A DNA stretch of 42,526 bases, taken from UHGV virus genome UHGV-0239872; one strand, given 5' to 3'. The translations under genes and the position numbers were made by a program. The notes under the pieces are model-generated. The model did not search any database. It had not been told where the DNA came from and saw nothing but the letters and a program-made list of their open reading frames with translations. How positions within the stretch are numbered: the first letter of the stretch is position 1; each line of letters begins with the position of its first letter. Origin of the DNA: a virus. Shown here piece after piece: positions 1-42,526 of this stretch.

Positions 1-83
1 CAGGCGGTACAGCAGTACCGCCACGTCTTGCCCATCCGTAATGTCAGGCCCACGGAATACCTTGACCGGATGCAGCGCCATGC

Positions 84-368
84 TTAGACCTCGAAGCTAC
101 CAATCGCCTCGTAGCCCTGAGCAGGCATGTTCTCAGCCGCACCAGCGTTCAAGGTGCCGCCATTCAGCAGGAATGCCAGCTCACCCATGCGGCTGATGTC
201 AGATTCCAGCGACGGCAGCGCAGCCTTCGCGTCTTCGACCGTGTTCAGTTCCGGTACATCGTGGCAGCCAGAGATACACAGCGCCATGTTGCCTTCTTCG
301 AAGCCATCGCCCACGATTGCAACGATATCTTTTTGGGAAGCGGAGTAGTATGCAGTTACTTTAGCCAT
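84..368 (-). CDS. small highly acidic early protein (94 aa; starts at the internal ATG, MAKVTAYY...)
   Basis: ATG at 366-368 with GAGGG SD; ORF-track N-terminal extension has no RBS; preceded by hairpin plus GGCATGATTGCC box; net charge about -10. Confidence 0.6.
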   Translation of the reverse strand: MAKVTAYYSASQKDIVAIVGDGFEEGNMALCISGCHDVPELNTVEDAKAALPSLESDISRMGELAFLLNGGTLNAGAAENMPAQGYEAIGSFEV

Positions 369-405
369 GGTAAAACCCTCAGTTAGTTGTGGCATGATTG
401 CCCTA

Positions 406-429
406 CAGCCCACCGCTATGGATGGGCTG
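406..429 (-). promoter_or_regulatory. 5'UTR hairpin (CAGCCCA-10nt-TGGGCTG) followed by a GGCATGATTGCC box (391-402) upstream of gene 84..368
   Basis: perfect 7-bp stem; one of five perfect or near-perfect hairpins that precede the acidic early genes. Confidence 0.5.
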
Positions 430-436
430 ACAGAAA

Positions 437-667
437 TCACGCAGTCGCTACGACTTCGCCTTGCAGTGCTGCCCGGACAGCCGCAGCGTAGCCCGTAGTA
501 GCCAGCGCTTCTTCGATATCATCGAAGTGTTCTTCGTTGCCCAGTTGAGAACGAGCGTAGCGCTCGCTGGTATACACAACCACCTCCGTGCGCCCGGCGT
601 TGAATTGTGCGAAGGTTACTTCGCCATCGTTCGGGTCGATGAAGCGTACCAGTTCAAACTTAGCCAT
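437..667 (-). CDS. small acidic early protein (76 aa)
   Basis: ATG 665-667 preceded by AGGAG; tightly packed after the upstream gene. Confidence 0.55.
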   Translation of the reverse strand: MAKFELVRFIDPNDGEVTFAQFNAGRTEVVVYTSERYARSQLGNEEHFDDIEEALATTGYAAAVRAALQGEVVATA

Positions 668-695
668 GCTTTGTACTCCTGTTGTTGGTTGTGGG

Positions 696-971
696 TTACT
701 CGAAGTCAGCCGCGTCTACGTTGTCGGCTTCGAAGCTGGTGATGAAGCGCGGCTCCAGTTCGTTCAGCTTCTCGACGGAGAGCTTGCCACCCTGAATGGC
801 AATCAGCATACCGCCGAGGTCTTCCAGCGCCTCGCGCACTTCACCGATTACTTCATCGTGGCTTGCGTCCGGCTTCGGCTGCACGCCCAGCGACGGTGCG
901 TTATCTTTGGTCTCGCCTACGATGAAAGCCAGACCGCCGTTGTTCAGTGCAAACACATTGATAGTGGACAT
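696..971 (-). CDS. small highly acidic early protein (91 aa, MSTINVF...)
   Basis: ATG 969-971; conserved 5'UTR module (hairpin, GGCATGATTGCC box, SD); shares an IVG(D/E) / LNGG motif with the 84..368 product. Confidence 0.6.
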   Translation of the reverse strand: MSTINVFALNNGGLAFIVGETKDNAPSLGVQPKPDASHDEVIGEVREALEDLGGMLIAIQGGKLSVEKLNELEPRFITSFEADNVDAADFE

Positions 972-1036
972 AATAAATCCTCGATAGGTTAAGGCATGAT
1001 TGCCGCATTGCCCCCTCGCAAGGAGGCAACAAGGCA

Positions 1037-1378
1037 TCACGCGTCGAAGTCGATATCGTCTTCCGCGTCGTACTCTTTGAGCACGTTGATAACCACGTCT
1101 TCACCCAGTGTTTCGGTGTCGATGTAGGCGTGGCCGCCCATGAGAGCGAACAGTTCCAGCGGGAAGCCAGACTCGCGGAACTCTGCGAAGCTGGTGTCGT
1201 TATCGAAGTGCGCCACGATAGCGTCAGGAGAATCGCCGTCGCAGTTGCGGCCTGCAATCAGGTAGCGCTCGTCGTCCTGAGTGAAGCCAACCCACTCGCT
1301 GGTGATAGTGTCAGCCGGAACGCCTGCGCCGAAAGCAGAGGCAGCGATGTTGGACAGCAGAACCAGTTTGATAGTCAT
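1037..1378 (-). CDS. small highly acidic early protein (113 aa, MTIKLV..., net charge about -19)
   Basis: ATG 1376-1378, GAGGG SD; perfect 8-bp hairpin and GGCATTATTGCC box upstream. Confidence 0.6.
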   Translation of the reverse strand: MTIKLVLLSNIAASAFGAGVPADTITSEWVGFTQDDERYLIAGRNCDGDSPDAIVAHFDNDTSFAEFRESGFPLELFALMGGHAYIDTETLGEDVVINVLKEYDAEDDIDFDA

Positions 1379-1414
1379 AGTAAAACCCTCGATTGAGTAA
1401 GGCATTATTGCCAC

Positions 1415-1439
1415 GCTGCGCCCTCGTTGAAGGCGCAGC
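1415..1439 (-). promoter_or_regulatory. 5'UTR hairpin (GCTGCGCC-9nt-GGCGCAGC) followed by a GGCATTATTGCC box (1401-1412) upstream of gene 1037..1378
   Basis: perfect 8-bp stem with no U-tract, so not an intrinsic terminator. Confidence 0.5.
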
Positions 1440-1449
1440 AGGACAACGC

Positions 1450-1731
1450 TTACTCGTCGTCAACCTCGGCTTCGAAGGTGCCGATTTCTTCCAGCGTCAG
1501 GCCGCTACCGTGACGCGCTTTCAGCTCGTCTTCGTCCTGCTCAGCGAGCATGATGATGAACTCATGCGGCAGCGGGATACCAGCCAGCGTTTCCAGAATG
1601 CCTGCGTTGTCGGTCGGCTCGCCGTCTTCACGGACGTGGTGCAGGTACTGGCCTTCGTTCAGAGATACAGCGAAGCCATACAGTTCGCCGTCACGTTTGG
1701 TGATGAAAGCAGTTACAGTTTTGATAGACAT
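1450..1731 (-). CDS. small highly acidic early protein (93 aa, MSIKTV..., net charge about -15)
   Basis: ATG 1729-1731 with TAGGAG SD; hairpin and GGCAGAATTGCC box upstream; N-terminus paralog-like to 1037..1378. Confidence 0.6.
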   Translation of the reverse strand: MSIKTVTAFITKRDGELYGFAVSLNEGQYLHHVREDGEPTDNAGILETLAGIPLPHEFIIMLAEQDEDELKARHGSGLTLEEIGTFEAEVDDE

Positions 1732-1769
1732 GGTGAAGCTCCTAAATGGTTGGGGCAGAATTGCCATAA

Positions 1770-1791
1770 AGCCAGCGCCTTGACACTGGCT
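1770..1791 (-). promoter_or_regulatory. 5'UTR hairpin (AGCCAG-10nt-CTGGCT) followed by a GGCAGAATTGCC box (1754-1765) upstream of gene 1450..1731
   Basis: perfect 6-bp stem. Confidence 0.45.
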
Positions 1792-1806
1792 TGAGTCAAT
1801 CCCGGC

Positions 1807-2085
1807 TTACGCCACTTCGAAATCTTCCTGACGACCCCAGCGCACCGTGCCATCGTACGGCGTGCCGTTGTTATCATCCAGCAGCCAGAGGAAGTCGCCG
1901 GATTCGTCCAGCAGTTCACGGCTTTCCTTGAAGTGCGGCAGTTGCTCCGCGCCTTCTTGAATGTTCAGGCGGCCAGTGTCGTCAATCGTAGCAACGATGC
2001 GGCCAGTAGGCTGGGCTTCCATGGTGGTTGCAGGAATGGAACCAGCTTTCGGTTTGATGCGAGTGTCAACAGCTTTAAAAGTCAT
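1807..2085 (-). CDS. small acidic early protein (92 aa)
   Basis: ATG 2083-2085, AAGGGG SD; perfect 7-bp hairpin (2124-2146) upstream. Confidence 0.55.
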   Translation of the reverse strand: MTFKAVDTRIKPKAGSIPATTMEAQPTGRIVATIDDTGRLNIQEGAEQLPHFKESRELLDESGDFLWLLDDNNGTPYDGTVRWGRQEDFEVA

Positions 2086-2123
2086 GCTATACCCCTTGAG
2101 GTTGGTGTGTGTGGTTACAATTC

Positions 2124-2146
2124 AGGCCACTCAGTGAATGGCCTGT
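2124..2146 (-). promoter_or_regulatory. 5'UTR hairpin (CAGGCCA-9nt-TGGCCTG) upstream of gene 1807..2085
   Basis: perfect 7-bp stem. Confidence 0.45.
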
Positions 2147-2152
2147 CAGTAA

Positions 2153-2677
2153 TCACGCAGCTTTCAGCTTGCGCAGGCCGTCCAGCACGTTCTGAGGCAC
2201 GACAACCTTGTTCGCGTCTTCATCACGCCCTTCGTGGCGCAGCTCATTGGCCTTGTTCATTGCCTTCTCAGCTTTGGCAATGAGCTTGTCCAGCGCTTCT
2301 TGCAGGTCGAAGCCTTCGAACGCTGGCTCAGGCTTGCAAGTCCACCACATCGTGGCTTTCGCCTTGTCGATGTTGTCGCGGATATGGTCTGCGCCTTTCC
2401 AGCCGACGAAGCCGGATTTACCATCCTCGCGCTCACCGATTACCAGACCGCCGAACTGCACGAACCAGTCAACCAGTGCTTTCTGGCGAACGCCCTCGCC
2501 CAGCCCATTAACGAAGGACTCAGCACGAGTGTAGTCGCCATGCTTGTGAGCATGAAGGATGATGCCAACGGCTACATTCTGGATGCCGTTACGCAGTGTT
2601 TTGGCCTTGCTGATTGTGTCAGCGATAGCTTTATCCAAAGCGGCCACGTCTTTGAAGCTGGTGTATTTGAATTGCAT
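2153..2677 (-). CDS. hypothetical early protein (174 aa, starts at MQFKYT)
   Basis: ATG 2675-2677 with AAGGGG SD; ORF-track start further upstream lacks an RBS. Confidence 0.5.
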   Translation of the reverse strand: MQFKYTSFKDVAALDKAIADTISKAKTLRNGIQNVAVGIILHAHKHGDYTRAESFVNGLGEGVRQKALVDWFVQFGGLVIGEREDGKSGFVGWKGADHIRDNIDKAKATMWWTCKPEPAFEGFDLQEALDKLIAKAEKAMNKANELRHEGRDEDANKVVVPQNVLDGLRKLKAA

Positions 2678-2824
2678 GATGTTACCCCTTGTCAGGTTGG
2701 TTGATTTCACATAGCGCCCCGCAGGACGCTATAGGCTATCAGCCACGGCGACGGCTCAGGCGTTGGTCAATGACCCAGCAGGCCGCCGCTATAACACACA
2801 GTGCAGTGAACATAGTCATTCCCC

Positions 2825-3214
2825 TTACTCCACTACCCAAAACAGTTCACCGTCATAAGTCCAAGCGGTATGCTGCCCGGCTTCCATCTGCTCGCCTGTT
2901 TTGCTGACCAGCTTGCCAGCAGGCTTGCCCGGATACGGTGAATCCATGAAGATTGCATCATCATCTTTGGTCACTACCATGATGCAGTCCTGTTCAAAGG
3001 CTTTACAGAACAGCTTAACAGCCTGTCTGATTTCGTAGATTCCATCGACAGGAAAGACCATGCTTAACTCATACGCATTGTCGAACTTGCCTGTCAGTGT
3101 GACCGGAATCACTCCGAACATATCCTGCACCGTTCGCAGTGCCTTGCAATGAAGCGCCAGATTAACACACTCAGCGTTTCCCTGACGATATGCGCTTGCA
3201 TAGATACGGTACAT
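2825..3214 (-). CDS. hypothetical early protein (129 aa), first clear early gene downstream of the promoter cluster
   Basis: ATG 3212-3214 with TGGAGAAA SD. Confidence 0.5.
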   Translation of the reverse strand: MYRIYASAYRQGNAECVNLALHCKALRTVQDMFGVIPVTLTGKFDNAYELSMVFPVDGIYEIRQAVKLFCKAFEQDCIMVVTKDDDAIFMDSPYPGKPAGKLVSKTGEQMEAGQHTAWTYDGELFWVVE

Positions 3215-3687
3215 AGTTATTTCTCCAGTTGTTGGCTATTTTCAGGTGGATAGTGAACCCATTGTGACGCGCCGTACAGTCTGCACTCAGTGGCATTGAT
3301 TGGCTTGTCGGATTCACTACCCTGAAAAATCGCCCCGCCCATTTCGCGCTGTGAGTCACCACTCACTCTCAGGAGTCCTTTAGCAGTCCGTCGCGTATCT
3401 TGCTCACCGTTGCCAGCTAACAAGCCGTTTGACTACCCACCTACTACCCTCCGCGCCTTATAAGACGTTCGGTATTGTGCTGATACTGCGCTGCGTCTAT
3501 CGCGCTTCTCCGTTACCTTGCATCAGGCGCTACCCCTACGGCGTTAGCAATGTTGCGATACCGTTGCCTTTCGGCGATGCCTCACCCAGTTCCAACCTGC
3601 GGCGGATACCCAGTGAGCCGTGACACTACGCGGCCAGTTTGCGTTCACTCAGAGCAGGATGCTTTCCATCCTTTCAACTCGGTGCTG

Positions 3688-3716
3688 ATTACAACACAGT
3701 GTATTCAGCTTGTCAA
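3688..3716 (-). promoter_or_regulatory. sigma70-type promoter A (minus strand: TTGACA-N17-TGtTGTAAT, extended -10)
   Basis: rc of 3711-3716 is TTGACA; rc of 3688-3693 is TGTAAT; 17-nt spacer; TG at -15/-14. Confidence 0.6.
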
Positions 3717-3767
3717 CTACTTTTTACTTCTGACTGACTGGCTTGCTGCCCTGTCAATCTGGTGTGC

Positions 3768-3796
3768 ATTACAGCATACTCGTTTCATCCTGTCAA
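3768..3796 (-). promoter_or_regulatory. sigma70-type promoter B (TTGACA-N17-TGcTGTAAT)
   Basis: same module as A; part of the repeated unit ATTACAGCATA...CTGTCAAC on the plus strand. Confidence 0.6.
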
Positions 3797-3905
3797 CCGA
3801 TTTAATCAGCGCCCGTTCAGAGTTAATTAAACCGTACCAGTTAGCCTGCGCGGGTGTTAACGTGTTTATCCATCACTATTCGGCTTGTCTGGCTGACGTG
3901 GAAGC

Positions 3906-3934
3906 ATTACAGCATAGTGAGCTTGCCTTGTCAA
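3906..3934 (-). promoter_or_regulatory. sigma70-type promoter C (TTGACA-N17-TGcTGTAAT)
   Basis: same module; 17-nt spacer. Confidence 0.6.
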
Positions 3935-4006
3935 CACACCAGATTGTTAAAGAGCAGTGCTACCGTTCAATCTTGTCTACTGGGCTAGTGCCTTTCGACG
4001 TGATGA

Positions 4007-4036
4007 ATTACAGCACATAACCAAAACAGTTTGCAA
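4007..4036 (-). promoter_or_regulatory. sigma70-type promoter D (TTGCAA-N18-TGcTGTAAT) with AT-rich UP-like sequence upstream
   Basis: rc of 4031-4036 is TTGCAA; rc of 4007-4012 is TGTAAT; AT-rich 4037-4060. Confidence 0.5.
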
Positions 4037-4164
4037 GTATTATTTTCAAGAAAAGTGATAAGTTACTGTAATCATTAGGATTAAAGTTTGATTAGATAAT
4101 CACAACACTGGATAGAATACCGTTAGATTACCATGAATAAATCCTTATAAATCAATGATTAAAT

Positions 4165-4182
4165 GAAAGTAACTATAGTGAT
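4165..4182 (-). promoter_or_regulatory. candidate phage-RNAP promoter core (minus strand ATCACTATAGTTACTTTC, contains the SP6/T7/K11-type CACTATAG)
   Basis: exact 18-nt repeat of 26325-26342 in opposite orientation; sits in a roughly 180-bp AT-rich island between the terminus-like repeats and the sigma70 promoters, a position analogous to T7 phiOL. Confidence 0.4.
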
Positions 4183-4199
4183 AGATATCGCTAGATAGC

Positions 4200-4660
4200 T
4201 GTCAGCGAGCGCGGCGCAGCCGAAACAAGCGAGCGCGGAACGGCAACGGATGGAATCCGACAGGATGACAGGCGGCAGACAGTGAACGCAGTAGACAGAG
4301 TGTAGGACAGTAACAGCAGGTAGCAGAGCATGACGCGCAGAGCTGGAGGCGCAGACAGTAGACCAGCAGACAGGACAGCACCACGCAGCACCACCGCCAC
4401 CACACAGCACCACGCCGCGCCACGAAAAGAGACAGATACCCGCACGACCACGCGCAGCACGCAGCACAGCACAGCCAGCGCAGAGCGTCCCCATAGGACA
4501 GCACCGCACAGCACAGCCAGCAGGACAGCGCACAGCACGACACACGGCAGACGATGAAACGCGACACGCACGAGCTATACCGCACGCAGGCAATCCTTTC
4601 GACGCGCCGCGCAGCGCACGCGAGCAATTATCGCGCACGTCGCGAGGCTAAACCGCGCAC
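4200..4660. repeat. T-depleted (plus strand almost only A/C/G) CA/GCA-rich low-complexity tract with short imperfect direct repeats; candidate genome-terminus or terminal-repeat-adjacent repeat array
   Basis: T is about 3-8% over about 450 nt; CACAGCACAGCCAGC occurs twice (4465-4479 and 4507-4521); AGGACAGCAC occurs at 4372-4381 and 4496-4505, with a degenerate AGGACAGCGCAC copy at 4522-4533; junk ORFs in all six frames. Confidence 0.5.
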
Positions 4661-4777
4661 ACGCTATGGGGGCACGCGCGGTCATTTGGGTCGAGGGAGG
4701 GGCAAGTATAAACGTGCAATTTTCAAGCCGGGGTATTGCACCCACGGCCTGTTCATTGCCTCAGCTTTTGGATACCC

Positions 4778-5314
4778 CTACAGCGTCGCACAGTAAGCGC
4801 TACAGCGTTTTGCACGAGCAACCAAGGCATCCCTATAGCGAACCACTGTCGGGGCTGTAGAAGCCTTTAGGAACGCAATACGAAGGTCACAGATGGCTGC
4901 TGCTGCGGAGTGAGGTTCCAGACGTTTGGCTGCTGCCACGGTAGCAGGGCCAACAATCCCGTCTTGTGCAACGCCGCATACCCGCTGTAGAGCTTTCGCC
5001 GCACGGGAGACACCGGAGTTGACACCGTAGTCAAACACGGCACATGCAATCGCAGGGTGAAGTTCGTCACCTCGGATGGGGGTGTAGTAATCCCGTCGAT
5101 AGATTGCTTCGGCTTGTGCTTTGGTGAGCTGCTTGATAGGTACACAAATAGTGCCGCCAAGCCCAGTAGGGACACCACAAGCTCTGCCATCCAGTTTGCC
5201 ATCACGAGCGTCACTAATTCCATGATTCGTTTCCCCTCCGGTATCGCCGGGCAGCTTGGTGTAACCACCTTCTGCCAGCCCGGTGAACCGCATACAGATT
5301 TCAAAGTTAGTCAT
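4778..5314 (-). CDS. endolysin: GH108 N-acetylmuramidase-like catalytic domain plus PG_binding_3 domain; no SAR or signal sequence
   Basis: TGLAEGGY...DTGGETNHGIS matches the GH108 EGGY motif; C-terminal ...FDYGVNSG...DGIVGPAT matches PG_binding_3; last gene before the non-coding terminus region. Confidence 0.8.
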   Translation of the reverse strand: MTNFEICMRFTGLAEGGYTKLPGDTGGETNHGISDARDGKLDGRACGVPTGLGGTICVPIKQLTKAQAEAIYRRDYYTPIRGDELHPAIACAVFDYGVNSGVSRAAKALQRVCGVAQDGIVGPATVAAAKRLEPHSAAAAICDLRIAFLKASTAPTVVRYRDALVARAKRCSAYCATL

Positions 5315-5697
5315 TACATCCCCAGTAGTGTAGTGATGAAGGCTTGCAGTGAGCTTAAGTCACCAGCCTTGATTGCTAAGTAGATACCGCTACACAGGGA
5401 TGCAGTTAAGAGACACCATTTGACAGCGTGAGCCGCCGCCGTGAACAACTTACCGATGTGGCTCATAGTCTTTTGAATGTCCTGAATTTGCTCAACCACA
5501 AGGAGCTGCTGTTGAACCGTCTGCCAGCGGAGGTCGTTCTCTGCCAGCTTAGAAATCATTGCAGCATCGCCCTTCTCAAGAGTGGCGATTTGTACCTCGT
5601 GCTTGTCAAGTCGAAGTTCTACGGTCTGCATACGAGCCTCCACCGCACCCATACGCGAGTGGATGTTAGGAGATGGCTCCTTCTTTGCTTCCGTCAT
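5314..5697 (-). CDS. lysis-cassette protein with N-terminal coiled-coil and a single C-terminal TMD (127 aa); candidate holin or antiholin with unusual topology
   Basis: ATG 5695-5697 with AGGA SD; hydrophobic stretch WCLLTASLCSGIYLAI near the C-terminus; overlaps the upstream gene by 32 nt and the endolysin start by 1 nt. Confidence 0.45.
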   Translation of the reverse strand: MTEAKKEPSPNIHSRMGAVEARMQTVELRLDKHEVQIATLEKGDAAMISKLAENDLRWQTVQQQLLVVEQIQDIQKTMSHIGKLFTAAAHAVKWCLLTASLCSGIYLAIKAGDLSSLQAFITTLLGM

Positions 5698-6154
5698 CTT
5701 TCACTTTCCTTTTCCACGGAGATGGTACAAACCACATGACTAAACCAAGGATGCACGTAAGGCCCATGCCGAAAGCCCATAGGAGGCTGCGTGGGTCGCT
5801 CTGAGAGACGATAACCGTGCGAGCCTGTACGTTTCCTTGGGTCATTTGCGACCCCTGCTTAGAAGCGTTTACAGAGCCTCCTGAGACGTCCTTGATGGAT
5901 GTGCCATTCGAACCCTGCTTAGCGGTATCCACTTTCGCGTTGCCTGATACGTCACCGACTTCTGTTTCGTCGGACTGTTTCGCAGTCACACCGATACCTT
6001 GCTTCGTATTCTCTGCACCTACTTGAGCCGTCAGTTCCGGCTTGTTGGGAGATACAGCCGAAGTTACAGCAGACAGTGCGCTAGTTGCGGAGCAGCCCGT
6101 CAGAGTCAGCGACGCTGATAGGACTGCCCCGGCCATTAGCCGAGACAGTTTCAT
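5666..6154 (-). CDS. lipoprotein with lipobox LTGC and a C-terminal TMD (162 aa); candidate unimolecular spanin (T1 gp11-like architecture)
   Basis: signal MKLSRLMAGAVLSASLTLTG|C with Ser at +2; repetitive periplasmic region (AKQG/GDVSG repeats); C-terminal LLWAFGMGLTCILGLVMWFV followed by KRKVKDD. Confidence 0.5.
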   Translation of the reverse strand: MKLSRLMAGAVLSASLTLTGCSATSALSAVTSAVSPNKPELTAQVGAENTKQGIGVTAKQSDETEVGDVSGNAKVDTAKQGSNGTSIKDVSGGSVNASKQGSQMTQGNVQARTVIVSQSDPRSLLWAFGMGLTCILGLVMWFVPSPWKRKVKDDGSKEGAIS

Positions 6155-6370: not shown

Positions 6371-7051
6371 TTAAGAGAGTGTAATGCCAGTGATTGCACC
6401 AGCGGAAACAGCGAAGGTCACGGTGTCGGTGTACGTGCCAGTGACCGGGATGGTCAGTGCATCACCGTTATCCACCATGGCCACAGTAGCGGCGAGGTTG
6501 AAGCCAGTGAGAGCACCGTTGCTTGCCACGACAGCAGTGGCGTTATGGCCGTCAGCACCAGCAGAGTTACGGACGGAGTAAGCCGAACCGTTAAGCACTG
6601 CATCGGCGTTAGCCGGGAGCCGCACGTTACTCAGCAGACCATCAGCTACACGGGCGGTAGCAGTGGTGATACCGAGGATAGAGCCGTCGAAGCGACGAAT
6701 CTCAGTTGAGTCAGTGTGGTCTACCAGCGCTGCGGTAGACAGGACGAGCTGCACGTTATCCAGCGTGGTGCCAGTAACGTTGGCAGTGGCGTTGTGCGCG
6801 TCGTTACCTGCGGAGTTAACCATGGAAACAGTAGCGCCGTCAGCCAGCAGAGCGGAACCTTCCGGTGTACCCGCGTAGCCAGCAGCCTCAAGTGCCGCCA
6901 CCAGATTTGTGATGGCAGTTTCAATGTCAGCAGCCTGAGCTGCCGTCACTGTACGGGTATCATTGCTGAAGCGTTGAGTCACGTTAGCTGCGATGCCGCA
7001 GCGATAACCAAGCTCGTAACGCTGAGCATCAGTGATGGTGATAATGGACAT
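6371..7051 (-). CDS. hypothetical Ala/Thr/Asn-rich protein with internal repeat (226 aa), immediately after large terminase
   Basis: ATG overlaps the TerL stop (ATGA-type junction); repeat NSAGNDAHNATANVTG / NSAGADGHNATAVVAS. Confidence 0.45.
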   Translation of the reverse strand: MSIITITDAQRYELGYRCGIAANVTQRFSNDTRTVTAAQAADIETAITNLVAALEAAGYAGTPEGSALLADGATVSMVNSAGNDAHNATANVTGTTLDNVQLVLSTAALVDHTDSTEIRRFDGSILGITTATARVADGLLSNVRLPANADAVLNGSAYSVRNSAGADGHNATAVVASNGALTGFNLAATVAMVDNGDALTIPVTGTYTDTVTFAVSAGAITGITLS

Positions 7052-40290: not shown

Positions 40291-40487
40291 TTAATCCACC
40301 TCCGGCTCTGGCCTACGTCAAGGCTGAACGCCATTAAGCCCCAGCCCACCAGCATACCGAGTATCGTACCCAACCCACCCGTCGCTGATTCACCAAGGGC
40401 AGGCACCAGCACAGTTACTGCCAGTACGCACCAGATAGCACCCCATATTAATACGAGGAACAGGAACAACAATATAACTCTGAACAT
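40284..40487 (-). CDS. small two-TMD membrane protein with basic C-terminus (67 aa, holin-like topology)
   Basis: two hydrophobic helices; C-terminal QSRRWIKW; GAGGA SD. Confidence 0.5.
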   Translation of the reverse strand: MFRVILLFLFLVLIWGAIWCVLAVTVLVPALGESATGGLGTILGMLVGWGLMAFSLDVGQSRRWIKW

Positions 40488-40506
40488 ATTTCATCCTCAC
40501 GTTGGC

Positions 40507-40550
40507 CAATATAGTTACCTTCATAATGCCAGCTAAATAATAACTGGCAT
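40507..40550. promoter_or_regulatory. AT-rich intergenic element: degenerate third copy of the TATAGTTAC motif (ATATAGTTACCTTC, plus orientation) plus a perfect 7-bp hairpin ATGCCAG-11nt-CTGGCAT
   Basis: 12/14 match to the ACTATAGTTACTTTC core; hairpin at 40526-40550. Confidence 0.3.
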
Positions 40551-40560
40551 GAGTAGATGA

Positions 40561-40752
40561 CTACGCCGGAATAACATTACGGACTATGCGTTGCAGGTCT
40601 TCGAGTTTACTCTCGGCCTCCCACTTTGTATCACGCACAGCCAAAGGTTTATTCGGCTGGAGTTTATTAACAACCCACCAGAATAATCCGGTGGGTGATT
40701 TGATTACGGCCAGCTTAGTGTCGCGTTGCATTCTTCGACTCCAGCATTGCAC
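40561..40752 (-). CDS. hypothetical protein (63 aa, start uncertain)
   Basis: ORF overlapping the upstream gene by 17-38 nt. Confidence 0.3.
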   Translation of the reverse strand: MQCWSRRMQRDTKLAVIKSPTGLFWWVVNKLQPNKPLAVRDTKWEAESKLEDLQRIVRNVIPA

Positions 40753-41525: not shown

Positions 41526-41810
41526 TCACACCTCTCTTTCTTCCAGCCATTGTTGCGCGGCTGCATACGCATCTTCATAACTGATGAAGCCGTCGAACTC
41601 GTCGCCGTTCGGTGCGAGGAAGCACCAGTCGAGGTGTTCATGTGGGTTGCCCCGCGAGAAGATTACGCAGGGGAATACGCCGCCGACCGAGTGCCCACGC
41701 AGGCCGCCGTTACCAGCACAGTGACCGAGCGTCGCGGCTACCCCACGCAGATGCTCAGCCTCACGGATTGCGCCAGCTTGTTCGATAAGTGATTCAGATG
41801 CCAGTACCAT
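41526..41810 (-). CDS. hypothetical protein (94 aa)
   Basis: ORF packed tightly in the operon. Confidence 0.4.
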   Translation of the reverse strand: MVLASESLIEQAGAIREAEHLRGVAATLGHCAGNGGLRGHSVGGVFPCVIFSRGNPHEHLDWCFLAPNGDEFDGFISYEDAYAAAQQWLEEREV

Positions 41811-41812
41811 AA

Positions 41813-41965
41813 CTACCCCCGGATTAAATAATATTCATGGTGCATGTAGTGACCGCCGAGGTATACCGCCCGGCTCATTAGGTTGGGGTTGCTCGCCCCG
41901 CCCAGCGCACAGTAACCAGCGTATGATATCTGGTTGGCGTGGGCATTGTATGTGCTCCCACTCAT
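41813..41965 (-). CDS. small Gly/Tyr/His-rich protein (50 aa, MSGSTYNAHANQ...)
   Basis: GAGCGAGG SD before ATG 41963-41965. Confidence 0.35.
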   Translation of the reverse strand: MSGSTYNAHANQISYAGYCALGGASNPNLMSRAVYLGGHYMHHEYYLIRG

Positions 41966-42021
41966 AGTAACCTCGCTCGTTTGATAATGACACAGCCCCC
42001 GCAAGCAGAGGCTGTAGCTTA

Positions 42022-42267
42022 TCACTCGACGATTTCGATGGTGTGACCAACGTGTGCGGCAGTGAATGCGAAGCACTCGTCACCCACATCGTCAACGAAG
42101 AAGATACCCTGCTCGTCAGTTGTGTAGCTGCCGTCAGGAAGTTCTTCACCATCCTCAACCAGCAGTGCGTCGTACTCTTTGCCGATGGTGGTGTCACGTA
42201 CTGCGCCAGAGAAATGCTCAGGCAGAGAGGTGTGACCGATGATGCGAATCAGAATTGAACGTGCCAT
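42022..42267 (-). CDS. hypothetical acidic protein (81 aa, MARSILIRI...)
   Basis: GAGGA SD 8 nt upstream of ATG 42265-42267. Confidence 0.45.
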   Translation of the reverse strand: MARSILIRIIGHTSLPEHFSGAVRDTTIGKEYDALLVEDGEELPDGSYTTDEQGIFFVDDVGDECFAFTAAHVGHTIEIVE

Positions 42268-42271
42268 ATAA

Positions 42272-42469
42272 TTAGTCCTCGTTGTCAATACCAAAGAGAT
42301 ACATCTGCCCTTCATAGATGGGAGTCAGTACCTTGAGCCACGTCTGGACAGCCAGCGGCGCGGCGCTATGATGTTGCTCGTTCAGCAGGTCAATGATGAA
42401 TGGCCTGCGTCCGGCGTACGCTTTGAAGCGGTCGATGATTTGCTCGTCGGTCGCCTCGCTCGTCAGCAT
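42272..42469 (-). CDS. hypothetical protein (65 aa)
   Basis: ORF at window edge. Confidence 0.35.
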   Translation of the reverse strand: MLTSEATDEQIIDRFKAYAGRRPFIIDLLNEQHHSAAPLAVQTWLKVLTPIYEGQMYLFGIDNED

Positions 42470-42526
42470 GTGCTGACCTAAGATTTCAATCTGGTCAATG
42501 ACGACCAGCCCTTCCTGACCATCGGG

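What the first reader, a model, noticed from the sequence alone, without database searches (positions are those of the whole stretch)
84..2085. Tandem array of six small, extremely acidic early proteins: candidate DNA-mimic or anti-defence module
Six consecutive genes downstream of the host-type promoter cluster encode 76-113 aa proteins with estimated net charges of about -7 to -19. Several look like paralogs. The 1037..1378 and 1450..1731 products both begin M(T/S)IK(L/T)V and both have poly-D/E C-termini. The 84..368 and 696..971 products share IVG(D/E) and (F)L(L)NGG(T/L) motifs. This position and composition match T7 gp0.3 (Ocr)-type DNA mimics and other early anti-restriction or anti-defence proteins, but no sequence resembles Ocr directly. 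Diversified paralog arrays at the infection front are typical of counter-defence loci.
Basis: partly seen in the sequence, partly recalled or inferred. Interest (0 to 1): 0.72.

Follow-up and report, generated by a model that had tools for sequence, protein, structure and literature searches.

The report
Small acidic early phage gene cassettes
Behind the early promoters and an anti-restriction enzyme of a T7-like coliphage lies a fast-changing row of small, acidic proteins of unknown function, separated by RNA-processing hairpins; they are reasonable but unproven anti-defence or host-takeover candidates, and they are not relatives of the DNA mimic Ocr.

Summary
The window is a complete, circularly permuted Bonnellvirus genome (Autographiviridae), with all genes on the minus strand. 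The six ORFs exist at the stated coordinates. Lengths (76-113 aa) and net charges (-7 to -19) are confirmed. They lie downstream of three exact TTGACA-N17-TGTAAT promoters, after a SAM lyase and a conserved gene of unknown function. The acidic run continues across the window origin, giving at least nine acidic proteins. Only one claimed paralog pair holds: g1 (84-368) and g3 (696-971), hhalign 94%. g4 and g5 are unrelated. None of the six matches Pfam, PDB, Ocr or ArdA. A 1.84-billion-protein search found only 13 relatives for the five proteins queried (g4 not included). High-confidence models of g3 and g4 are small alpha/beta folds with no significant structural neighbour, so not Ocr-like. 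The genes are under purifying selection. Cassette content, order and copy number differ among relatives. The cassettes are separated by conserved, covarying hairpins of about 55 nt. A model built from these hairpins ranks what I recall as T7's five early RNase III sites first. Anti-defence or host-takeover function is plausible from context, and DNA mimicry rests on composition alone. These are new orphan members of a known kind of locus.

The parts
3906..3934 (-). early host-type (sigma-70) promoter 1, TTGACA-N17-TGTAAT with TGn extended -10
   Evidence: Exact pattern match. Only 3 in the genome, against 0.08 expected. Sequence read.
3768..3796 (-). early host-type promoter 2
3688..3716 (-). 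early host-type promoter 3
2825..3214 (-). S-adenosylmethionine lyase (T3 gp0.3-type anti-restriction enzyme), first early gene
   Evidence: Pfam PF23780, E 2.2e-26, full length. phrog_2226. Annotated 'anti-restriction SAMase' in relatives.
2153..2677 (-). conserved 174-aa early protein of unknown function (phrog_1448), not acidic (net +2); used as the anchor of the array
1807..2085 (-). g6: 92 aa, net -7. Cassette present in only a few relatives. Its slot is replaced by the unrelated f9 cassette in L005 and deleted in LF82-23.
1450..1731 (-). g5: 93 aa, net -15. Orphan family, distantly related to the f9 family (not present in this window).
1037..1378 (-). g4: 113 aa, net -19. Alpha/beta fold with a disordered acidic tail. 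The family is tandemly duplicated in relatives.
696..971 (-). g3: 91 aa, net -11. Model with pLDDT 92 and topology b-b-b-a-a-a-b. Distant paralog of g1.
437..667 (-). g2: 76 aa, net -7. No hairpin upstream (28-nt spacer), so probably co-processed with g3. Fastest evolving, with a mosaic patch.
84..368 (-). g1: 94 aa, net -10. Distant paralog of g3. Weak phrog_32287 match.
1..81 (-). 5' part of f2 (111 aa, net -9). The gene is split by the arbitrary window origin and continues at 42526..42272.
   Evidence: same 111-aa family in relatives
42272..42526 (-). 3' part of f2
42022..42267 (-). f1: 81 aa, net -13. Continuation of the acidic run.
41526..41810 (-). f5: 94 aa, net -9. Continuation of the acidic run.
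2674..2746 (-). weak copy of the RNase III-type intergenic hairpin, upstream of the phrog_1448 gene
   Evidence: model R1, 19.3 bits, E 2e-4
2082..2164 (-). RNase III-type intergenic hairpin upstream of g6 (divergent copy)
   Evidence: R1, 25 bits; hairpin seen
1728..1811 (-). RNase III-type hairpin upstream of g5. Carries the T7-like ACUCAAG...CUUUAUG motif.
1375..1455 (-). RNase III-type hairpin upstream of g4
968..1048 (-). RNase III-type hairpin upstream of g3
365..448 (-). RNase III-type hairpin upstream of g1
41962..42033 (-). weaker copy of the hairpin further down the early region, just after f1
   Evidence: R1, 24.7 bits

Best explanation
The six genes are part of a longer, hypervariable early 'accessory cassette' region of a Bonnellvirus. 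Shown: three strong host-type promoters are followed by a SAM lyase, a conserved gene, and then at least nine small acidic ORFs. Most of these ORFs are preceded by a conserved structured RNA element of about 55 nt that contains the stop codon of the upstream gene. Inferred: host RNA polymerase makes one early polycistronic RNA as the leading end of the genome enters the cell. Host RNase III cuts it at the hairpins into stable mono- or dicistronic mRNAs, as in the T7 early operon. The same conserved hairpins provide homology for recombination, which swaps, deletes and duplicates cassettes between related phages. Inferred function: the products are compact, lineage-specific alpha/beta proteins with negative surfaces and flexible acidic tails. 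They most likely act as stoichiometric binders or inhibitors of host proteins, chiefly nucleic-acid-binding ones. They would serve as host-range or counter-defence accessories alongside the SAM lyase, each cassette being dispensable on some hosts. They are not homologues of Ocr or ArdA.
For: Genome identity and layout. Promoters. SAM lyase.

Charge and clustering. T7's other small early proteins are not acidic.

Real genes: dN/dS is 0.0-0.53 for all six, against 0.07-0.20 for the SAM lyase.

Accessory behaviour. Against altidsur, amino-acid identity is 60-97% for the six and 95% for the SAM lyase. g6 occurs in only 5 of the 20 phage records with a match. Mellemsur keeps only g1. Order and copy number differ in Lidtsur, J8-65, LIMEzero and L008. 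The g6-to-f9 swap and the g6 deletion are bounded by the hairpins. The literature says Bonnellviruses differ mainly in small hypothetical genes (PMC7552041), and that leading regions of Autographiviridae are variable and often carry anti-defence genes (PMC12455610).

Orphan status. There are no Pfam or functionally annotated PHROG hits. Twenty relatives of g4 were found in 5.8 billion proteins. Thirteen relatives of the other five were found among 1.84 billion representatives. All lie on phage-sized contigs.

Hairpins. MFE is -24 to -33 kcal/mol. The variable positions of the conserved box covary with the upstream flank. 86% of cells are paired, against 41-48% in slid controls. 18 of 20 pairs show double changes, and 0 of 500 shuffles reach the observed score. 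Model R1, built only from this lineage, ranks five T7 intergenic spots first. These coincide with the five early RNase III sites as I recall their coordinates. The ACUCAAG...CUUUAUG motif is shared.
Against: No functional evidence of any kind exists for these proteins. No homologue has a known role. No structural neighbour suggests a target. Acidity is shared by nearly all small early proteins of this lineage, so it may reflect a general property such as solubility, rapid folding or avoidance of nucleic acid, rather than mimicry. g3 is almost invariant among close relatives (dN/dS about 0). That looks more like a conserved takeover function than an arms-race gene. One mosaic patch begins inside g2 rather than at a hairpin. 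RNase III cleavage is inferred from structure and from similarity to T7 sites, not observed. The covariation alignment was fitted to the model. The T7 site coordinates are from memory.
Confidence: 0.5

Rival explanations
1. One reading: one or more of the six are Ocr-type structural mimics of double-stranded DNA that block type I R-M, BREX or other DNA-binding defence enzymes.
For: The proteins are small, early and acidic. g4 (24 acidic, 5 basic of 113 aa) and g5 (21 acidic, 6 basic of 93 aa) approach the charge density of known mimics (PMC4872106). They are adjacent to another anti-restriction gene. DNA mimics are notoriously diverse in sequence and fold (PMC3902945), so lack of homology does not exclude mimicry.
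Confidence: 0.15
2. They are host-takeover proteins unrelated to immunity. They would be inhibitors or modulators of host RNA polymerase, replication, division, nucleoid proteins or RNA turnover, as with T7 gp0.4, gp2 and gp5.7 and the early proteins of phiKMV-like phages.
For: Same genomic class and size as known takeover proteins (own knowledge of T7 and the phiKMV group). The RNA polymerase gene lies late in the early/middle region, so the host polymerase must be used first and then shut off. g3 and g5 are highly conserved among close relatives (dN/dS 0.0-0.09).
Against: Presence and absence vary strongly among phages isolated on the same K-12 host. This argues that most cassettes are dispensable there, unlike a core takeover function. 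No structural match to known takeover proteins.
Confidence: 0.3
3. They are evolutionary filler: selfish or recently born ORFs kept only because they sit between conserved RNase III sites, with no function of their own.
For: Orphan status, small size, and frequent loss without obvious consequence.
Against: dN/dS is well below 1 for all six. The models are confident and well packed. The families are retained across several genera, including LIMEzero and LIMElight relatives.
Confidence: 0.05

Closest known systems
T7 gp0.3 Ocr (DNA-mimic anti-restriction / anti-BREX protein)
   Same: Small, acidic, early protein made from host-type promoters at the leading end of an Autographiviridae genome. Presumed stoichiometric inhibitor.
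   Different: No sequence or profile similarity. g3 and g4 are alpha/beta folds, not the helical Ocr rod. Charge is lower: -7 to -19 against -28. Not the first gene after the promoters.
T3 gp0.3-type SAM lyase early region
   Same: The first early gene here is a SAM lyase (PF23780), as in T3, so the locus opens with a known anti-restriction function.
   Different: The six acidic proteins are additional genes with no counterpart in T3 or T7 (found only in Bonnellvirus records).
T7 class I early operon with RNase III processing sites (R0.3, R0.5, R1, R1.1, R1.3)
   Same: Three tandem strong sigma-70 promoters, a polycistronic early region, and intergenic irregular hairpins with the shared motif ACUCAAG-stem-CUUUAUG. 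The model of this phage's hairpins ranks what I recall as T7's five sites first.
   Different: Here a site precedes most of the small cassettes (8 copies across about 5 kb of the early region). The lower stem is a fixed GCGUGAUU/AAUCAUGC pairing that includes the upstream stop codon. Cleavage has not been shown.
PeSL (promoter-early stem-loop) cassettes of T4-like phages (PMC2839356, PMC4122927)
   Same: Conserved intergenic stem-loop elements flank small, variable, mostly orphan ORFs in a hyperplastic region. They coincide with insertion, deletion and replacement boundaries.
   Different: No embedded early promoter (the conserved box is part of a helix). The element is an RNase III-type processing hairpin rather than a terminator/promoter composite. 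One mosaic boundary lies inside an ORF.
ArdA and other acidic anti-restriction proteins of plasmid leading regions
   Same: Acidic proteins expressed first from the entering end of a mobile element.
   Different: No Pfam ArdA hit at E up to 1. The single-sequence search of five of the six against 1.84 billion representatives returned only 13 short relatives, and all of the g4 family's relatives lie on phage-sized contigs. Context of the 13 and the plasmid collection were not examined.

Membership tests
Ocr (T7 gp0.3) family | Sequence or profile homology to Ocr | tested here: not met
   No Pfam hit at E up to 1. hhalign of every family against T7 Ocr gives probability below 1%. PDB profile searches find no Ocr chain.
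Ocr (T7 gp0.3) family | All-helical elongated dimer shaped like bent B-DNA | tested here: not met
Ocr (T7 gp0.3) family | Very high acidic content (34 acidic, 6 basic of 116-117 aa) | tested here: inconclusive
   g4 has 24 acidic and 5 basic residues, g5 has 21 and 6, and the others have 13-17 acidic residues. Ocr was computed the same way.
Ocr (T7 gp0.3) family | Inhibits type I R-M and BREX | not testable with these tools
   Needs plating and binding assays.
ArdA | Pfam ArdA domain and three-domain elongated fold | tested here: not met
   No Pfam or PDB hit. The proteins are single small domains.
DNA-mimic proteins (functional class) | Small, pI below 5, rich in Asp and Glu | tested here: met
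   pI 4.05-4.52 and 15-23% D+E.
DNA-mimic proteins (functional class) | Surface carboxylates arranged like DNA phosphates; competes with DNA for a DNA-binding protein | not testable with these tools
Tandem paralog array | Neighbouring genes are detectably homologous | tested here: inconclusive
T7-type RNase III processing site | Intergenic position in an early polycistronic unit; irregular hairpin of about 20 bp with an internal loop | tested here: met
T7-type RNase III processing site | Resemblance to experimentally established T7 sites | tested here: met
   Model R1 ranks T7 intervals 1422-1505, 3096-3174, 5857-5888, 6409-6478 and 848-925 as its top five hits. These coincide with R0.5, R1, R1.1, R1.3 and R0.3, whose coordinates I give from memory of Dunn and Studier 1983. 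Shared ACUCAAG/CUUUAUG motif.
T7-type RNase III processing site | Cleavage by RNase III | not testable with these tools
   Needs RNA end mapping in rnc+ and rnc- hosts, or in vitro cleavage.
PeSL mobile regulatory cassette (T4-like phages) | Stem-loop combined with an early sigma-70 promoter | tested here: not met
   No promoter-like hexamers in 1-5400 apart from the three upstream promoters. The conserved box is the 3' arm of the lower stem.
PeSL mobile regulatory cassette (T4-like phages) | Elements mark the boundaries of indels and replacements of small ORFs | tested here: inconclusive
   The g6/f9 swap, the g6 deletion and the mellemsur deletion are bounded by elements. The g2 patch starts inside the ORF.
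S-adenosylmethionine lyase (neighbouring gene 2825-3214) | Full-length match to PF23780 | tested here: met
   E 2.2e-26, 92.8 bits against a cutoff of 28.

The most novel reading that the evidence does not exclude
The early region is a phage 'cassette exchange' system. At least ten interchangeable ORF cassettes encode previously unseen small acidic folds. Each is bounded by the same structured element of about 55 nt, which serves both as an RNase III processing site and as the recombination joint. Related phages would thereby assemble different combinations of novel inhibitors of host immunity. Several cassettes (g1, g3, g4 and perhaps g5/f9) would descend from one ancestral b3-a3-b domain that diversified against different defence proteins. 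Some may act through SSB-like acidic, Phe-containing tails rather than by rigid DNA mimicry.
Probability: 0.2. Interest if true: 0.7.

Novelty: new member of a known kind. Interest (0 to 1): 0.42.

Why it matters
If any of these cassettes inhibits a defence system, it would define a new anti-defence family with a new fold. The families are absent from the Pfam and PDB libraries searched and carry no functional annotation in PHROGs. The array also offers a compact natural panel, about ten small genes that vary between phages isolated on the same host, for mapping which early accessory gene counters which E. coli or Enterobacter defence. The hairpins extend T7-style RNase III processing of early mRNA, apparently undescribed for this lineage, to a phiKMV-like-organised group of coliphages. 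They also suggest how such accessory repertoires are shuffled. If the genes prove to be ordinary takeover factors, the locus is a routine example of the variable early region of Autographiviridae.

Tried and rejected
1. g4/g5 paralogy. The shared M(T/S)IK start and acidic ends are not backed by BLASTP or profile-profile comparison. Similar N-termini occur in nearly all early ORFs of the lineage.

2. The invariant GGCAATNNTGCC box read as a promoter. It does not fit sigma-70 or sigma-54 spacing. It occurs only four times, all in this array, so it is not a phage-RNAP promoter. It is the 3' arm of a covarying helix.

3. The hairpins as intrinsic terminators. They have no U-tract.

4. Rfam. There was no family match. 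The only hit was a sub-threshold manganese-riboswitch match on the opposite strand inside the SAM lyase gene (20 bits against a gathering score of 45), taken as chance.

5. A concatenated five-family profile in the search for homologous proteins returned nothing. The same idea worked with phmmer on representatives.

g2, g5 and g6 therefore remain unmodelled.

7. PDB profile searches for g4, g1/g3, g5, g6 and g2 gave only chance-level hits. The antibody VH hits for g2 at E 0.014-0.08 are dismissed.

8. The idea that the acidic Phe-containing C-termini mimic the SSB or gp2.5 tail. The Phe is not C-terminal and the tails are not conserved within families. This is kept only as speculation.

Full report
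WHAT THE WINDOW IS

The first 6 kb match about 20 GenBank phages, all Bonnellvirus (Autographiviridae, now Autoscriptoviridae/Stentvirinae). The closest are Ec1-ASingh and SS-2025 at 94% nucleotide identity. All large ORFs are on the minus strand. The annotated relatives altidsur and LF82-23 show this order: terminase ... lysis cassette (Rz-like spanin, endolysin) | about 1.5 kb non-coding | SAMase | conserved 175-aa gene | a run of small hypothetical genes | primase. The window is therefore a whole genome of about 42.5 kb that is circularly permuted. Its arbitrary origin falls inside the gene that follows the finding.

CHECK OF THE OBSERVATION

The six ORFs are at the stated coordinates on the minus strand, each with an ATG and a Shine-Dalgarno sequence.
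- g1 84-368: 94 aa, -10
- g2 437-667: 76 aa, -7
- g3 696-971: 91 aa, -11
- g4 1037-1378: 113 aa, -19
- g5 1450-1731: 93 aa, -15
- g6 1807-2085: 92 aa, -7
All have pI 4.05-4.52.

The 'host-type promoter cluster' is real. Three exact TTGACA-N17-TGTAAT sites with a TGn extension lie at 3688-3716, 3768-3796 and 3906-3934 (minus). These are the only three in the genome, against 0.08 expected. The generic scan missed them because of the G at position 2 of the -10 hexamer.

Two genes separate the promoters from the six. The first is an S-adenosylmethionine lyase (PF23780, E 2e-26). The second is a non-acidic PHROG-1448 protein.

The acidic run continues beyond g1 across the window origin: f2 (111 aa, -9), f1 (81 aa, -13) and f5 (94 aa, -9). 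Almost all small proteins of this genome with pI below about 4.75 are in this block. In T7, by the same calculation, only Ocr is strongly acidic among the small class I proteins: 0.4 is -2, 0.5 is +4, 0.6A is +7 and 1.1 is +10. The clustering is therefore real and is not the T7 norm. Charge density (15-23% D+E) remains below that of Ocr (29%; 34 acidic and 6 basic residues; and PMC4872106).

PARALOGY

Pairwise BLASTP among the six finds nothing. I built family profiles from related loci. With these, g1 and g3 align over their full length (hhalign probability 94.3%, E 1e-7). g4 and g5 are not related (0.3% and 8.7%). g5 is distantly related to a family, f9, that occupies the g6 slot in other phages (80%, E 1e-5). 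The g4 family is tandemly duplicated in Lidtsur, L007 and L008.

HOMOLOGY AND FOLD

None of the six hits Pfam. PHROGs gives only a weak match of g1 to an unknown-function family.
- g4 alone finds 4 proteins among 5.8 billion, and its profile finds 20. All are unnamed and lie on phage contigs of about 43 kb, such as LIMEzero.
- A phmmer search of the other five, concatenated, against 1.84 billion representatives finds 13 proteins.
- tblastn against 50,697 phage records finds the six only in Bonnellvirus, always annotated as 'hypothetical protein'.
- Profile searches of all PDB chains give nothing below E 0.01. hhalign against T7 Ocr gives probabilities below 1%.

EVOLUTIONARY BEHAVIOUR

All six genes are under purifying selection, with dN/dS between 0.0 and 0.53. 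g2 and g4 are the least constrained (0.32-0.53), g3 is the most constrained, and the SAM lyase lies at 0.07-0.20.

Content is mosaic:
- g6 is present in only 5 of the 20 phage records with a match.
- Mellemsur keeps only g1, and usur only g5 and g4.
- Lidtsur has g4-g5-g4'-g3-g1.
- J8-65 has g4-f9-g5-g2.
- L008 has g5-g3-g3'-g4-g4'.

Against the near-identical L005, the g6 slot holds an unrelated cassette. g5 to g3 are 95-100% identical, and the last two thirds of g2 drop to 60-73%. This agrees with the published remark that Bonnellviruses differ mainly in small hypothetical genes (PMC7552041). It also fits the view that the first-injected region of Autographiviridae is variable and often carries anti-defence genes (PMC12455610).

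THE INTERGENIC ELEMENT

A conserved element precedes g1, g3, g4 and g5, and more weakly g6, the PHROG-1448 gene and two further early genes. It has four parts in order:
- GCGTGATT, which includes the upstream stop codon
- a GC-rich stem-loop whose sequence varies
- an invariant GGCAATNNTGCC box
- the Shine-Dalgarno sequence about 10 nt further on

The MFE fold is one long irregular hairpin (-24 to -33 kcal/mol). In it, the box pairs with the GCGUGAUU flank below an internal loop and a 9-10 bp upper stem. The two variable box positions covary with their partners: C:G against U:A or U:G, and A:U against C:G. On 61 distinct copies, 86% of cells are paired, against 41-48% when the partners are slid. 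18 of 20 pairs show double changes, and no shuffle out of 500 reaches the observed score. One caveat applies: that alignment was fitted to the model.

The copy upstream of g5 carries ACUCAAG-stem-CUUUAUG, the motif visible in T7 sites R0.3, R0.5 and R1.1. A covariance model built only from this lineage was run on the first 8 kb of T7. Its top five hits are 1422-1505, 3096-3174, 5857-5888, 6409-6478 and 848-925. These are the positions of the five early RNase III sites R0.5, R1, R1.1, R1.3 and R0.3. I give those coordinates from memory of Dunn and Studier 1983. RNase III processing of T7 early RNA is Dunn and Studier 1973, cited in PMC5371410. I therefore read the elements as T7-type RNase III processing sites. 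Cleavage itself is inferred.

The g6/f9 swap, the g6 deletion in LF82-23 and the large deletion in mellemsur all begin and end at these elements. The elements probably also serve as recombination joints. This is functionally like the PeSL cassettes of T4-like phages (PMC4122927), but without an embedded promoter.

MOST LIKELY MECHANISM

Shown: strong host-type promoters, a leading SAM lyase, a string of small acidic ORFs under selection, processing-type hairpins between them, and cassette-wise variation.

Inferred: immediate-early polycistronic transcription by host RNA polymerase; RNase III maturation into stable short mRNAs; and products that act as stoichiometric binders of host proteins, probably nucleic-acid-binding ones, given the negative surfaces and tails. 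These would serve as host-specific counter-defence or takeover accessories.

I put about 0.5 on the accessory counter-defence reading, 0.3 on non-immune host takeover, 0.15 on true Ocr-like DNA mimicry for at least one member, and 0.05 on no function.

COMPARISON WITH KNOWN SYSTEMS, AND VERDICT

The locus is organised like the T7/T3 class I region: three promoters, a gp0.3-position anti-restriction gene and RNase III sites. It behaves like the hyperplastic, PeSL-bounded regions of T4-like phages. The proteins themselves belong to no described family and have no significant structural neighbour.

The finding is real. Its boundaries and paralogy claims need correction. Its functional interpretation is plausible from context but untested, and the specific Ocr analogy fails every testable criterion except acidity. 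I classify it as new (orphan) members of a known kind of locus, of moderate interest, mainly as a well-defined candidate set for anti-defence screening.

Noticed in passing
window 365-448, 968-1048, 1375-1455, 1728-1811, 2082-2164, 2674-2746, 41962-42033, 40484-40569 (all minus strand): A conserved long irregular hairpin of about 55 nt lies between early genes. Its 5' arm contains the upstream stop codon (GCGUGAUU) and its 3' arm is the invariant box GGCAAUNNUGCC. It shows strong covariation. A model built from it ranks first what I recall as T7's five early RNase III sites. It is probably an RNase III processing site that also marks cassette boundaries.
   Followed up: yes
window 3688-3716, 3768-3796, 3906-3934 (minus): Three exact TTGACA-N17-TGTAAT promoters with a TGn extended -10, the counterpart of T7 A1-A3. 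The generic promoter scan misses them because of the G at position 2 of the -10 hexamer.
   Followed up: yes
window 1-81 and 42272-42526 (minus): The window origin cuts through a 111-aa gene (f2). The sequence is therefore a circularly permuted complete genome, and the acidic gene run continues at the far end of the window (f2, f1 at 42022-42267, f5 at 41526-41810).
   Followed up: partly
window about 4200-4640: A GC-rich stretch of short degenerate repeats (GCTGTG/CAGCA-type, periods 5-14) lies between the endolysin gene and the early promoters. It is reminiscent of the short-repeat arrays next to the T7 terminal repeat and probably marks the physical genome end.
   Followed up: partly
window 3215-3687 (minus): About 470 nt with no credible gene (only one 41-aa ORF, 3217-3342) lies between the last early promoter and the SAM lyase start. 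No clear RNase III-type site was detected there, unlike T7 R0.3. Its role is unknown.
   Followed up: no
protein P0033 (from; aligned): A 124-aa database protein is a chimera: the first 49 residues of g6 joined to the C-terminal part of the PHROG-1448 protein. This is evidence of illegitimate or short-homology recombination within the early region of some relative.
   Followed up: no
L003 1130-1435 and 1864-2157; L007 11262-11570 and 11646-11957; L008 11656-11949 and 12024-12323: The g4 family occurs as two diverged copies per genome in Lidtsur and in two related metagenomic phages. Each copy has its own upstream hairpin.
   Followed up: partly
C-termini of g1, g3, g5, g6 and the f9 and f1 families: Unrelated early families end in a similar strand-plus-acidic-tail pattern: E-x-I-G-(S/T)-F-E-(V/A)...DFE...DIDFDA. 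This could be convergence on a short interaction motif or simply a common terminal beta-strand. It remains unexplained.
   Followed up: partly
window 2950-2989 (+): A sub-threshold Rfam match to the manganese riboswitch (20.4 bits against a gathering score of 45) lies on the non-coding strand inside the SAM lyase gene. It is almost certainly chance.
   Followed up: no
proteins P0001 and P0010: Database copies of the g4 family are labelled Enterobacter bugandensis (on a 42.7-kb contig) and Cutibacterium acnes (754-bp contig). These look like phage genomes or contaminants deposited under bacterial names, not bacterial homologues.
   Followed up: no
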